Source: an uncultured Pelagibacteraceae bacterium
GTDB lineage: Bacteria > Pseudomonadota > Alphaproteobacteria > Pelagibacterales > Pelagibacteraceae
Length of the DNA stretch: 64,000 bases
Assembly (NCBI GenBank): GCA_902573295.1
Contig: CACGJB010000002.1
Location: 8,433 to 72,432, forward strand
Direction of reading: 5' to 3'
A program made the translations under genes and the position numbers. Below, piece by piece: positions 55,075-58,874 of this stretch. The notes under the pieces were generated by a model. That model was not told the DNA's origin and made no database searches. It saw only the letters and a program-made list of their open reading frames with translations. How positions within the stretch are numbered: the stretch's first letter is position 1; each line of letters opens with the position of its first letter.

Positions 55075-55443
55075 ATGAAAAAATTTTTAGTATTTATTTG
55101 TTTTGTATTGGCGTTAAGCACCAAAGCAGTTGGTAAAGAAACAACTTACAGTAAAGAGTCATTTGATAAAGCCCTATCTGATGGAAAAGTTGTAGTTGTA
55201 AGTTCTTGGATTAAATATTGTAGTTCTTGTGCAAGCCAGATGAAAGTTCTTGAAAAAGCAAAAAATGATTTTGATAATATGGAATACTTTGCTTTTGATG
55301 TAACAAATAAAGAAATTGCTCAATTTTTTAACGTTCAATATCAAACAACACTTTTAATTTTTAAAGATAATAAAGAAGTTTACAGAAGTATTGGTGAGAC
55401 TACCAAAGAACTCATTTACGACGCTTTAAAATCCTCTATCTAA
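55075..55443 (+). CDS. Exported thioredoxin family protein
   Basis: Signal peptide, CSSC. Confidence 0.8.
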   Translation: MKKFLVFICFVLALSTKAVGKETTYSKESFDKALSDGKVVVVSSWIKYCSSCASQMKVLEKAKNDFDNMEYFAFDVTNKEIAQFFNVQYQTTLLIFKDNKEVYRSIGETTKELIYDALKSSI

Positions 55444-56875
55444 ATTTAATTTTTAGAATTATTGCGGGTAAAAAAGTTGCAATTAAAAAAGATAAAAATA
55501 ATAAAGATTGACCTATGAAAGGTGAAAACAAGTCTTTAGAAATAAATACTCCCACTAATAAACTTTTGGAAAAATCAGGAAATGGAAACATTAAAAATCC
55601 AGCAACTAAACCAATTATAATTGAAAAATAAGCAGTTTTTTCATCAACTTTATTATAGAAACTATAAAAAACAGTCACTACAAACGCACAACAAAATAAA
55701 TCAGCGAGAAGGAATAAATATAAAATATCAAATCCTTTTGAAGCAACTCCAAAAGCAATTACAGACAAAATTAAAATGAAATATTTAGATATTTTTAAAT
55801 AATCAGTTTTTTTATCTAGGTTAAAAGTCGCTTTGCCATCAACTACAAACAAACTAGAAATAGCATTAACTAAAGTGTCCACAGTTGAAATAGTTAATGC
55901 AAGTCCAAGAATAATGATCAATAAAGATAAAATTTCTGTTTGATCTTTTAATAATAAGCTAAAAAAACCTAAATCAGGTCTAACAGACGTATCAATTGAA
56001 AATGAAACCATTCCAATAAAACCCATTAAAAAAACTATTGGAACAATAATAAAGAATGAAATTATCAAACCACTCTTTAATGTTTGATAATCTTTTGCAG
56101 CATATACTCTTTGCCAATTTCCTTGATGAAATAAATTTGTTGCTGCAACTGCTATAAAGAAAGTTAATCCAGCAGTGTATCCTGGAATATAATTTGAACT
56201 TAATAGTTGAGGATTCTTTTCATTAATTAAAGAAAAAGAAAAATTATTTCCTGAAGATGAACTAATAATTGAAATCAAAATAAACAACAAAACACCAATT
56301 ACAATCATTTGAATATTATCAGTAAATATAGATGCTCTTAATCCACCATAAAGGGTATAACTTAAAGTAGCTACCAAAACTATTAATGCTGTAATCCACA
56401 ATTCTGTCCCGGATATATAATTAATTAACACAGCAACTGCTGTTACTTCTGCACAAAGAAAAATGAACATATAAAAGATTGTCATTAACAAAATTAACTT
56501 AAATAGACTTTTACCAAATTTCTTTCTCATAAACTCAACTAAAGAAGATCCTTTTGGAAACTCATTTCTAATTTTTTTTCCAAAATAAATTAAGAAAATC
56601 ATTGGAAAAGCTGTACCTAATGCATAACCAATAACAGCACCTACTCCGCCCCAAGTAGCAGCTGCAACGGGTCCAAATAAAATCCAAGCTCCTAAAGCTG
56701 ATGCCACAAGACTTGTGGTAAGTGAAAATAACCCGATGTTTCTATTTGCAGTTAAATAATTATTAATACCCTTAAAATTTTTAGAATGAATAATTCCTAA
56801 AAAAGCAAATAATAAACTAATTGCAATTATTAATATTAATGATGTTGATTGGCTTAAAAAATATGTTTTATCCAT
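55436..56875 (-). CDS. thiV: Sodium:solute symporter, ThiV-like thiamine-precursor transporter
   Basis: SSS motifs (GGLRASIFTD, WQRVYAA, STVDT) and a TPP-type riboswitch directly upstream. Confidence 0.75.
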   Translation of the reverse strand: MDKTYFLSQSTSLILIIAISLLFAFLGIIHSKNFKGINNYLTANRNIGLFSLTTSLVASALGAWILFGPVAAATWGGVGAVIGYALGTAFPMIFLIYFGKKIRNEFPKGSSLVEFMRKKFGKSLFKLILLMTIFYMFIFLCAEVTAVAVLINYISGTELWITALIVLVATLSYTLYGGLRASIFTDNIQMIVIGVLLFILISIISSSSGNNFSFSLINEKNPQLLSSNYIPGYTAGLTFFIAVAATNLFHQGNWQRVYAAKDYQTLKSGLIISFFIIVPIVFLMGFIGMVSFSIDTSVRPDLGFFSLLLKDQTEILSLLIIILGLALTISTVDTLVNAISSLFVVDGKATFNLDKKTDYLKISKYFILILSVIAFGVASKGFDILYLFLLADLFCCAFVVTVFYSFYNKVDEKTAYFSIIIGLVAGFLMFPFPDFSKSLLVGVFISKDLFSPFIGQSLLFLSFLIATFLPAIILKIKFR

Positions 56876-56945
56876 TTTATCCCTTTCTGAATTACCGGAC
56901 AGGTTCTTAGGGTATGATCTCAGTCTGTTAAGACACCCCTTTTAA
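56876..56945 (-). promoter_or_regulatory. TPP (THI-box) riboswitch, variant
   Basis: AGGGGUG-UCUUAACAGAC-UGAGA-UCAUACCCUAAGAACCUG-UCCGGUAAUUCAGA-AAGGGA-UAAA-AUG. Confidence 0.85.
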
Positions 56946-57001
56946 TATTCATTATATTATATTAATCGATATAGCTAGTGATTTAAGTTTTGTTTCTTAA
57001 A

Positions 57002-57295
57002 TTATTTTTGATTCTTATGGTTCATTATTTCAATCATGCATTGTGTAGCATAATCTCTCCACTCAGATGAGGTTTTGTTCTTTAAGCTATTTAGATGATT
57101 TCTATTACTTTGAATGTCATCTTTATGCTTTAATTTGTCTGCTCCATTTAAGTTTTTCTCCATTTCAGACAAATTAGTTTCCATTGCTTTTATCCACTCG
57201 TTTCCAAGCTCAACACATTTTTGGTCATCTTTTTCATCACAAATTTGTTTAAAAAAATTAAAGATAACATCATCAGTATTTACTGAGGTATTCAT
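57002..57295 (-). CDS. Hypothetical protein
   Basis: 97-aa helical ORF coupled to the pentapeptide gene. Confidence 0.7.
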   Translation of the reverse strand: MNTSVNTDDVIFNFFKQICDEKDDQKCVELGNEWIKAMETNLSEMEKNLNGADKLKHKDDIQSNRNHLNSLKNKTSSEWRDYATQCMIEIMNHKNQK

Positions 57296-57298
57296 TAA

Positions 57299-57808
57299 TT
57301 ATTGTTTACAGGTACCAATAGATTCTGGACCACAAGTTTGGCCATTGGTCCAAGTAGCTCCAGTTAAATTAGCCCCATCAAAATTAGCATTGGTAATATT
57401 AGAAGATGTAAAATTAGCTTCCATTAAGTTAGAGTTTTGAAAATTTGCCTCGATTAAAGTTGCTCCCATGAAATCAACTCTAGTTAGGTTAGCTCCGGTA
57501 AAGTTAGTTTTTTCAAAATTTGCTCCAATTGAAACAGATTCATAGAGGTTAGCTCTTATAAAAGTGGACTCAGGAAAAGTTCCAAATGATAAATTTGAAG
57601 TCATCATAATACTTTTATCAAAGTTCACTTGAATAAAACTTGCAAAAGAAAGATTTGAATTTGGAAGATAACTTCCTTGTAAATCTTGAGAGTCTGAAAA
57701 TCTACAATTAGAATAATCAACACCTTCTGTTAAAGGATCATCACAAGCAGCATTTGAATTTGATAAAAATAAAAAACTTAATAAAATAATTATGATTATT
57801 TTTCTCAT
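57299..57808 (-). CDS. Exported pentapeptide repeat protein
   Basis: Signal peptide, A(N/D)(L/F)xx repeats, terminal cysteines. Confidence 0.92.
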   Translation of the reverse strand: MRKIIIIILLSFLFLSNSNAACDDPLTEGVDYSNCRFSDSQDLQGSYLPNSNLSFASFIQVNFDKSIMMTSNLSFGTFPESTFIRANLYESVSIGANFEKTNFTGANLTRVDFMGATLIEANFQNSNLMEANFTSSNITNANFDGANLTGATWTNGQTCGPESIGTCKQ

Positions 57809-57905
57809 AATAAAAGTTAACAAATAAAATATGTCAAAACAATGTATGATTTGAGCTAACTAGGAGAGTTTATTTTATGGCTTTTTACCATTTTTAAGCT
57901 TCTCA

Positions 57906-58874
57906 CTAGCTTATTTTAATTTTTGTAAAACATGTATGACGTTTATTTGGTTCAATTAAAGTGCTAGGGAAATTTTTTTTATTTGGAGTATCAGGAAAAT
58001 ATTGTGTTTCTAAACATATGCCCTGGTAAGGAAATAATTTTTTTTTATAATTCAGATTTTGTGCTGAATAAACTTGAACACCAGGCAAATTAGAAAAAAA
58101 ATCTACTTGAATATTGCTATTATTATTTTTTAAAGTTCCAACGAAATTTCTGGTATTTTTCTTAATAATAAATGTGGTGTCAAAACCTTTAAATTTAAGA
58201 TTCAGCTTTTTATTTTTAAAATAATCTAATTTTTTTCCAATGTTTTCAAAATTTAAAAAATCATAAATAGATTTTTTTACACTTTTAAATCTACCTGTTG
58301 GAATTAAATTTTTATTTATTTGAAGATATTTATATGAGTTTAATTTTAAATCATGATTATAAATCATGTTTTTTTTATTTTTTTCTAAATTCCAATAACT
58401 ATGATTGGTTAAATTAACATGAGTACTTTTATTAGATTTATATTCATATTTTATAATCAGAAATTTATCTCTTAATTGATAACTACAATTGACAACTAAA
58501 TTTCCTGGAAAGCCTTGATCTTTATCTCTTGAATATATTTGATATACTATTTTGTCTTTTGTTTGATTTAATTTTTTCCATGGTAGTATTGAGAAACCAA
58601 CTTTACCACCGTGAAGTATATTTTTTCCTTCATTTGCACTTAAAATAAATTTTTTATTACCTATCTTAAATTTTGAATTAGAAATTCTACCCGCATACCT
58701 TCCACAGGTCGATCCAACACTTGGATGTTTGTACCGATAATTTTCTCTTGATCCTAAATTTAAAATTAAATTTATTTTCTTTTTCTTGTGATAGACTTCA
58801 AAAAGACTTGCCCCGTAATTAAGAGTTTGAACTCTTAGATATTTATTTTGAATTGTAGAGTTTTCAATTTTCAC
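57906..58874 (-). CDS. galM: Aldose 1-epimerase
   Basis: GRYAGRI, LHGG, GFPG, NLTNHSYWNL, CLETQ. Confidence 0.92.
   Translation of the reverse strand: MKIENSTIQNKYLRVQTLNYGASLFEVYHKKKKINLILNLGSRENYRYKHPSVGSTCGRYAGRISNSKFKIGNKKFILSANEGKNILHGGKVGFSILPWKKLNQTKDKIVYQIYSRDKDQGFPGNLVVNCSYQLRDKFLIIKYEYKSNKSTHVNLTNHSYWNLEKNKKNMIYNHDLKLNSYKYLQINKNLIPTGRFKSVKKSIYDFLNFENIGKKLDYFKNKKLNLKFKGFDTTFIIKKNTRNFVGTLKNNNSNIQVDFFSNLPGVQVYSAQNLNYKKKLFPYQGICLETQYFPDTPNKKNFPSTLIEPNKRHTCFTKIKIS

What the first reader, a model, noticed from the sequence alone, without database searches (positions are those of the whole stretch)
56873..56945. TPP riboswitch variant with intact pyrimidine arm but remodelled pyrophosphate arm, controlling a ThiV-like transporter
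Seen: the pyrimidine-sensing half is canonical (GGGGUG, short P3 GUCU/AGAC, CUGAGA, AUACCC, GAACCUG). The other half reads CCU-GU-CCGG-UAAU-UCAG-AA-AGGGA instead of CCU-GAU-CnGG-nUAAUn-CCnG-CGn-AGGGA. J4/5 lacks its A, J5/4 CG is replaced by AA, and P5 is weak. The RBS (AAGGGA) lies in P4, 4 nt before AUG, which indicates translational control. Known: J4/5 and J5/4 nucleotides coordinate Mg2+-pyrophosphate in TPP riboswitches, and SAR11 needs the pyrimidine precursor HMP. Inference: altered ligand specificity (thiamine, TMP or HMP-type compounds), giving a precursor-sensing switch. A riboswitch before SAR11 thiV has been reported, so the novelty lies in the ligand question.
Basis: partly seen in the sequence, partly recalled or inferred. 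Interest (0 to 1): 0.8.

Follow-up and report, generated by a model that had tools for sequence, protein, structure and literature searches.

The report
SAR11 thiamine riboswitch lacking pyrophosphate pocket
The vitamin B1 riboswitch in front of the B1-precursor importer gene of SAR11, a dominant group of ocean bacteria, has lost the bases that normally grip the vitamin's pyrophosphate yet is almost perfectly conserved, so it likely still switches the gene off but probably cannot tell the vitamin's phosphorylated forms apart.

Summary
Observation confirmed; ligand untested. A TPP-family aptamer (RF00059, 44.5 bits, below the 54.3 cut-off) lies before a thiV-type symporter in a SAR11 genome. 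The pyrimidine half is intact and covaries. The pyrophosphate arm has 6/6 nt instead of 8/8: the A61/C77 layer is gone, leaving a G·A junction and a C·A mismatch. This is not decay: 168 of 201 genus genomes match the 26-nt arm, 147 of 150 listed matches exactly. New here: P1 is not conserved, and the family holds four arm types before thiV. Best reading: a minimal translational OFF switch that is phosphate-blind and low-affinity, and in vivo reads the TPP/TMP pool, since these cells have no route to free thiamine. An HMP-type sensor is possible but weakly supported: canonical arms also precede thiV elsewhere, and short arms precede other transporters. Prior art: the SAR11 riboswitch is known, its ligand is stated in print as unconfirmed, and McCown 2017 mentions phosphate-blind P4-P5 variants (details unpublished). 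This scan noted similar variants on other DNA (six notes). New variant of a known kind.

The parts
56863..56950 (-). TPP-family aptamer, full RF00059 match
   Evidence: 44.5 bits, E 7.5e-7, model 1-105, below gathering score 54.3
56909..56940 (-). Pyrimidine-sensor half: P2 (56937-56940 with 56909-56912), short P3 (56931-56934 with 56923-56926), J3/2 UGAGA (56918-56922)
   Evidence: UGAGA invariant in 74 of 74; 3 of 4 P3 pairs and 1 P2 pair show changes on both sides
56882..56903 (-). Shortened P4-P5 arm: P4 CCU/AGG, G·A junction (56900/56885), U-A and C-G pairs, C·A mismatch (56897/56888), G-C, G·U, loop UAAU (56891-56894)
   Evidence: mean column variability 0.004 against 0.35-0.46 in the flanks; one compensatory pair (U-A to A-U in 3 genus g9 sequences)
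56880..56884 (-). AGGGA, inferred Shine-Dalgarno sequence, forming the 3' strand of P4
   Evidence: sequence; 2-5 nt before the start codon in 75 of 75 distinct type A cores; ribosome binding not tested
55436..56875 (-). thiV-type sodium:solute symporter, 479 aa (P0001), likely HMP importer
   Evidence: orthologues at 80-97% identity in named Pelagibacterales records; HMP transport assigned to SAR11 ThiV in PMC11452348

Best explanation
This is a conserved, streamlined TPP-family riboswitch whose pyrophosphate pocket has collapsed, and it likely works as a low-affinity, phosphate-blind translational OFF switch that would shut down the thiV importer when the cell's TPP plus TMP pool is high. 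Shown: intact pyrimidine sensor, intact UAAU docking loop, arm one layer shorter, no conserved P1, AGGGA inside P4 2-5 nt from the start codon. Inferred: (1) the free arm is marginally stable, so the ribosome site is mostly open; (2) the ligand's aminopyrimidine binds J3/2 and the thiazole-bearing body helps the UAAU loop dock on P3; (3) docking stabilises P4 and hides AGGGA; (4) without the Mg-pyrophosphate contacts TPP, TMP and thiamine bind about equally, at roughly micromolar level; (5) because these cells build TMP and then TPP from imported HMP and have no route to free thiamine, TPP and TMP are the ligands met in vivo.
For: Anatomy. Conservation: 168 of 201 genus genomes match within 3 mismatches; of the 150 matches listed 147 are exact and 3 have one change, each turning a mismatch or wobble into a Watson-Crick pair (one of the 3, G202, is unpublished). 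Predicted arm energy -2.3 kcal/mol against -5.1 to -7.4 for canonical arms; mean P4 probability 0.33 (75 cores) against 0.82 (13 canonical), AGG unpaired 0.48 against 0.07. Pocket residues G60, A61, C63, C77, G78 and the A61U effect (0.74 to 2200 nM); TMP and thiamine bind about 1.4 and 3 orders weaker than TPP to the canonical aptamer (10.1101/2025.01.21.634073, passages). P4-P5 variants that do not discriminate thiamine, TMP and TPP are reported in PMC5473149 (passages). Pathway: complete genus genomes G013 and G068 have thiD, thiE, thiG, thiL, and no thiC, pyrophosphokinase or thiB over cut-off; G000 has thiD and thiE. HMP uptake in HTCC7211 is constitutive and attenuates within an hour of HMP (PMC11452348).
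Against: No binding or reporter data exist here. The McCown variants are not shown as sequences in what I could read, so this form may not be one that was assayed. Ligands that do not engage the pyrophosphate-sensing stem switch the canonical RNA poorly (PMC9171761), so a pocket-less arm might switch weakly. P1, the usual regulatory helix, is not conserved, although it is also weak in canonical SAR11 arms (2.62 of 5 pairs). The near-invariant C·A mismatch and G·purine junction suggest specific contacts that a purely blind arm would not need. Folding energies ignore tertiary contacts and Mg. Near-invariance is not unique to this arm: the canonical arm in family f2 takes only two forms in the loci read.
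Confidence: 0.5

Rival explanations
1. Precursor sensor: the aptamer would read HMP, HMP-P or HMP-PP through the intact pyrimidine pocket, with the invariant C·A mismatch near the loop as a relocated metal/phosphate site suited to a shorter ligand, giving direct feedback on the imported substrate.
For: All short-armed SAR11 types (A, A', B, C) whose downstream gene was read precede thiV, while the thiB-linked family f2 keeps the canonical arm. Every conserved ligand contact left is on the pyrimidine side. The C·A mismatch persists in 149 of 150 listed matches although C-to-U would restore a pair (the exception is unpublished G202).
Against: Canonical arms precede thiV-like genes in g6 and in 4 distant proteobacterial loci. 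Short G·A-junction arms precede TonB-dependent receptors. The SAR11 association reflects few evolutionary events. Small ligands that fill only the pyrimidine site bind at mM to uM level (PMC9171761).
Confidence: 0.15
2. Still TPP-selective: G60 and a purine at the G78 position are kept, and the rebuilt arm would bind Mg-pyrophosphate in a new way.
For: G50 of the alignment is invariant and faces A or G. 13 of 42 alphaproteobacterial arms outside family f1 lack A61 (counted by eye), so the pocket tolerates change; A61G improved switching in one engineered system.
Against: All 42 of those arms keep C77-G78, which this one lacks. A61U costs about 3000-fold in TPP affinity, and A61G also lowers it.
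Confidence: 0.15
3. TMP-preferring sensor: removing one stacked layer would move the G·purine junction about one phosphate length toward the pyrimidine pocket, fitting thiamine monophosphate, the first full-length product of imported HMP.
For: Arm is 6/6 against 8/8 nt; the layer order G60/G78, A61/C77, C63/G76 follows from the passages. Type B genome G162 has thiE but no thiL hit over cut-off.
Against: Geometric argument only, no structure modelled. G151 also lacks thiL yet has a canonical arm. Type A genomes have thiL.
Confidence: 0.12
4. Ligand-insensitive leader: the fold would be kept as a constitutive translational damper or RNA-stability element.
For: No P1; HMP uptake is described as constitutive; predicted TPP aptamers in diatoms did not regulate (cited in PMC11452348).
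Against: UGAGA, the two As of J2/4 and UAAU, which serve ligand binding and docking, are invariant in 74 of 74 while flanks and loops vary freely.
Confidence: 0.08

Closest known systems
Canonical TPP riboswitch (Rfam RF00059; E. coli thiM, PDB 2GDI)
   Same: P2, P3, J3/2 UGAGA, J2/4, P4 CCU/AGG, UAAU loop, position before a thiamine-pathway transporter.
   Different: J4/5 and J5/4 collapsed to one G·A mismatch, arm one layer shorter, C·A mismatch in P5, P1 not conserved, score below the gathering cut-off.
P4-P5 TPP riboswitch variants of Roth, McCown and Breaker (mentioned in McCown et al. 2017, PMC5473149, as in preparation)
   Same: Changes in the pyrophosphate-binding core with the pyrimidine half kept; reported there to bind thiamine, TMP and TPP alike.
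   Different: Their sequences and hosts are not given in the passages read, so identity with this form is unknown. The A61-less alphaproteobacterial arms seen here keep C77-G78; this one does not. Here the gene is an HMP importer in cells without thiamine uptake.
SAR11 thiV TPP riboswitch (Meyer 2009 PMC2704228; McRose 2014 PMC4260697; Brennan 2024 PMC11452348)
   Same: Same locus type: riboswitch before the ThiV/SSSP symporter in Pelagibacterales.
   Different: The passages read treat it as an ordinary TPP riboswitch, note only that SAR11 RNAs are short, and do not mention the missing pocket; Brennan 2024 states that its ligand specificity is unconfirmed.
HMP-PP (thiS motif) riboswitch (Atilho 2019, PMC6478431)
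   Same: Precedent for RNA sensing of the pyrimidine precursor.
   Different: Unrelated fold, terminator-embedded; no terminator-like site here.

Membership tests
TPP riboswitch RF00059 | Score at or above the gathering cut-off (54.3 bits) | tested here: not met
   44.5 bits, E 7.5e-7, full-length; 12 of 151 order genomes pass, none from genus g1; most canonical-armed f2 matches also fall just short
TPP riboswitch RF00059 | Pyrimidine sensor: P2, P3 and J3/2 UGAGA | tested here: met
TPP riboswitch RF00059 | P4 and the L5 UAAU docking loop | tested here: met
   invariant in 74 of 74 aligned sequences
TPP riboswitch RF00059 | Pyrophosphate pocket: J4/5 G60-A61 and J5/4 C77-G78 | tested here: not met
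   G kept; A61 and C77 equivalents absent, G78 position A (G once)
TPP riboswitch RF00059 | P1 helix closing the three-way junction | tested here: not met
   pairing no better than shuffled partners
TPP riboswitch RF00059 | Located upstream of a thiamine-pathway gene | tested here: met
   thiV-type symporter 4 nt downstream; thiV identity inferred from family, orthology and context, not from alignment to SAR11_0811
TPP riboswitch RF00059 | Selective binding of TPP over TMP and thiamine | not testable with these tools
   needs binding assays
P4-P5 phosphate-blind TPP variants (McCown 2017) | Changes in the P4-P5 pyrophosphate core with intact pyrimidine half | tested here: met
P4-P5 phosphate-blind TPP variants (McCown 2017) | Similar affinity for thiamine, TMP and TPP | not testable with these tools
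   needs binding assays
P4-P5 phosphate-blind TPP variants (McCown 2017) | Match to the authors' variant consensus | not testable with these tools
   cited as in preparation; the paper's supplementary panels were too large to read
HMP-PP (thiS) riboswitch | Aptamer embedded in an intrinsic terminator | tested here: not met
   0 terminator-like sites in 56800-57100; the Rfam scan of 55500-58000 gave TPP and three weak unrelated hits

The most novel reading that the evidence does not exclude
The dominant SAR11 lineage has rewired a TPP riboswitch into a P1-less sensor of the pyrimidine precursor (HMP, HMP-P or HMP-PP), using a relocated site at the invariant C·A mismatch, and so regulates import of its essential B1 precursor by the precursor itself.
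Probability: 0.15. Interest if true: 0.85.

Novelty: new variant of a known kind. Interest (0 to 1): 0.5.

Why it matters
The only thiamine-class riboswitch found in these cells sits on the importer for a nutrient that SAR11 must scavenge at picomolar levels, and its ligand is an open question in print (PMC11452348). The finding shows that it cannot be assumed to be an ordinary TPP sensor. The family offers a natural series before the same gene (canonical, C77-G78 kept, fully collapsed, bulged), so the steps of losing phosphate discrimination can be assayed with 70-nt RNAs. If it senses HMP-type compounds it would be a true ligand switch in one of the commonest riboswitch classes. Practically, cut-off based annotation misses it throughout the genus.

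Tried and rejected
Decay: rejected. A second, canonical TPP riboswitch in the same genome: none found in the 75%-complete assembly; 1 of 134 order genomes with a match had a second, weak one. Arm type tied to thiV in general: rejected. Arm type tied to thiL loss: rejected, G162 (type B) and G151 (canonical) both lack a thiL hit over cut-off. Type A tied to lack of tenA: holds in genus g1 (12 of 77 have tenA, all 12 type C) but fails in g9 (3 of 3 have tenA with the A' arm). A register-shift ON state (CUG pairing with CAG): not among the low-energy folds of the window's arm; the competing fold also hides the ribosome site. Stable global fold: z -0.34, uninformative for a ligand-dependent RNA. 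Promoter or transcription start: no site above chance; -10-like hexamers scatter at -25 to -20 in A/T-rich DNA. Viral contigs: 3 pattern matches, none riboswitch-like. RNA runs: contigs from 4 of the 23 listed runs cover the aptamer with a depth peak, but contigs cannot show strand, start or level and conserved sequence pools many strains, so this is not used as evidence. ThiV tree: only the quick tree finished, 38 rows (L164 dropped, no ORF picked), deep forks weak, so the number of origins is not claimed. Look-ups of this scan's notes by sequence and by place found nothing.

Full report
Observation. Infernal matches 56863-56950 to all 105 positions of RF00059 at 44.5 bits (E 7.5e-7; cut-off 54.3) and deletes the model's J4/5 AU and J5/4 CG. 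It is the only RF00059 match in the genome, which is 75% complete. The AUG of a 479-aa sodium:solute symporter follows 4 nt after AGGGA. The 80 best relatives in the genome collection are Pelagibacterales records at 80-97% identity, so the window is SAR11 and the gene is thiV by family, orthology and context.

Conservation. I took 70 of the 72 genomes with a protein match (G045 and the weak G089 hit were not fetched). Of these 70 loci, 64 carry the identical 3' half (62 by pattern, 2 read by eye), 5 carry another type and 1 is cut by a contig end; ThiV identity among the carriers falls to 59%. All 80 loci carry it. In a direct pattern search, 168 of 201 genus genomes match the 26-nt arm within 3 mismatches; 150 matches are listed, 147 exact, and 18 are not shown. 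The three changes each create a Watson-Crick pair in the proposed register: two at the G·U pair and one at the C·A mismatch, the last in unpublished genome G202, on which that claim rests. In an alignment of 74 of the 75 distinct type A/A' cores (L197 left out), mean column variability is 0.004 in the arm, 0 in UGAGA, 0.41 in L3 and 0.35-0.46 in the flanks. Pair counts: 96.8% paired, 5 pairs with changes on both sides, 0 of 500 shuffles reach the covariation score, slid registers are far lower. Four of the five covarying pairs are in P2 and P3. In the arm 6 of 7 pairs never vary and so say nothing, and one shows U-A to A-U in the three g9 sequences, probably one event. Kin are not independent.

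Anatomy. Between CCU, the UAAU loop and AGG the strands are 6 and 6 nt, against 8 and 8 in canonical arms. The fold is P4, a G·A mismatch, U-A, C-G, a C·A mismatch, G-C, G·U and the loop. In E. coli thiM, A61 coordinates Mg, stacks between G60 and C63 and bonds C77; C77 and G78 contact the beta-phosphate (10.1101/2025.01.21.634073, passages; PMC3764141, passages). The variant has lost the A61/C77 layer. Two residue mappings are possible (delete J4/5 and J5/4, as Infernal does, or delete A61 and the bases flanking the loop); both shorten the arm by one layer and I cannot choose between them. A61U alone raises the TPP Kd from 0.74 to 2200 nM, and TMP and thiamine bind the wild type about 1.4 and 3 orders weaker than TPP. 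P1 is not conserved: 2.01 of 5 pairs against 2.02 for shuffled partners, with no convincing alternative register. It is also weak in the 13 canonical SAR11 cores (2.62 against 2.17). The arm folds at -2.3 kcal/mol against -5.1 to -7.4 for canonical arms, with mean P4 probability 0.33 against 0.82. AGGGA lies 2-5 nt before the start codon in all 75 cores and no terminator-like site is found. This fits a minimal switch in which ligand stabilises P4 over the ribosome site; that step is inferred.

Distribution of arm types. RF00059 matched 134 of 151 order genomes, 12 over the cut-off, none of these in genus g1 (tally includes unpublished G202). Family f2 has canonical arms in all 25 loci read, before a thiB-type gene where the ORF was read; G092 has thiB and a pyrophosphokinase but no thiE. 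In family f1, thiV is preceded by canonical arms in g6 (3 loci; a fourth precedes an SDR), type A in most of g1, A' in g9, type B (7/6) in g7, and type C (6/8, keeps CG) in g8 and a g1 subgroup. Among 401 class genomes the 6-nt 3' strand pattern matched only G000 and G153, none of the 397 outside f1. The 8-nt pattern gave 42 matches in 41 of those 397: all keep CG and 13 lack A61, counted by eye. These strict patterns catch only part of all TPP riboswitches. Seven of 400 phylum genomes have a distant thiV homologue (33-36%); 4 of the 7 loci carry a riboswitch, all canonical. A metagenome scan built to exclude type A gave 115 loci, 32 passing a loose filter. By eye, 13 are type B (SAR11-like, before thiV-like ORFs where read), 11 are 7/6 arms with a G·A junction, 1 is another TPP-like form and 7 look like chance. 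Three of the 11 were scanned against Pfam and precede TonB-dependent receptors; their lineage was not determined. Collapse of the pocket therefore recurs and is not specific to HMP importers.

Physiology. Complete g1 genomes G013 and G068 have thiD, thiE, thiG and thiL and no thiC, pyrophosphokinase or thiB over cut-off. G000 has thiD and thiE; thiG and thiL were not found in the partial assembly. The route is HMP in, HMP-PP, TMP, TPP, so free thiamine is an unlikely signal. HMP uptake in HTCC7211 is HMP-specific, constitutive and attenuates within an hour; the authors say the ligand specificity of this riboswitch needs confirming (PMC11452348, passages). A micromolar threshold could suit very small cells, where one molecule is tens of nM or more (cell size recalled, not from a call), but canonical arms in related small cells show that this is not required.

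Prior art. Meyer 2009 (PMC2704228, passages) and McRose 2014 (PMC4260697, passages; supplement unreadable) list the SAR11 riboswitch as a TPP riboswitch; Carini 2014 was not held and is known to me only through citing papers. McCown 2017 (PMC5473149, passages) reports a large set of variants mutated in the pyrophosphate core that bind thiamine, TMP and TPP alike, citing a manuscript in preparation; its supplementary panels could not be read and may show such variants. Searches found no paper describing these variants in detail or the SAR11 arm; passages of PMC10043782, PMC6429828 and PMC6478431 did not mention it. Subscription journals and theses are not covered. Six notes of this scan describe pocket-less variants in other lineages; they are unchecked AI notes, not evidence.

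Verdict. Real, strongly conserved and structurally more reduced than the common A61-less forms. Most likely a phosphate-blind TPP/TMP-pool sensor (0.5); HMP-type sensor 0.15, still TPP-selective 0.15, TMP-preferring 0.12, ligand-insensitive 0.08. It works like a TPP riboswitch and descends from one, but fails the pocket, P1 and score tests of the canonical family. New variant of a known kind, interest 0.5.

Noticed in passing
G181:C1:786242-788465 and 11 other genus g1 genomes: An alternative cassette: type C riboswitch (keeps J5/4 CG), a divergent thiV (about 52% identical to P0001 in the five checked) and tenA about 1.5 kb downstream of the riboswitch. All 12 tenA-positive g1 genomes of 77 have the type C arm. 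It may suit AmMP salvage.
   Followed up: partly
G162 (g7) and G151 (g6): thiD, thiE, thiG present but no thiL or pyrophosphokinase hit over cut-off, like the unexplained thiL loss published for SAR11 IIIa (PMC10030771, passages).
   Followed up: partly
L155 (G152:C1:842151-842241): Canonical TPP riboswitch before a short-chain dehydrogenase (PRK08642 family); may be the oarX type named in the abstract start of PMC11223231 (listing only).
   Followed up: no
L238, L247, L275, L284, L321 and others: Short-armed TPP variants with a G·A junction before TonB-dependent receptors in metagenome contigs, with a longer leader (63-72 nt to the start codon).
   Followed up: partly
G751:C6:75819-75880 and G751:C7:223926-223972: One alphaproteobacterial genome holds both an A61-less and a canonical TPP riboswitch, a useful pair for ligand comparison.
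   Followed up: no
window 57002-57295 (-): 97-aa ORF just upstream of the leader with no Pfam or NCBIfam match; upstream of it a pentapeptide-repeat gene (57299-57823, -); a thioredoxin-like gene (55075-55443, +) overlaps the thiV stop.
   Followed up: no
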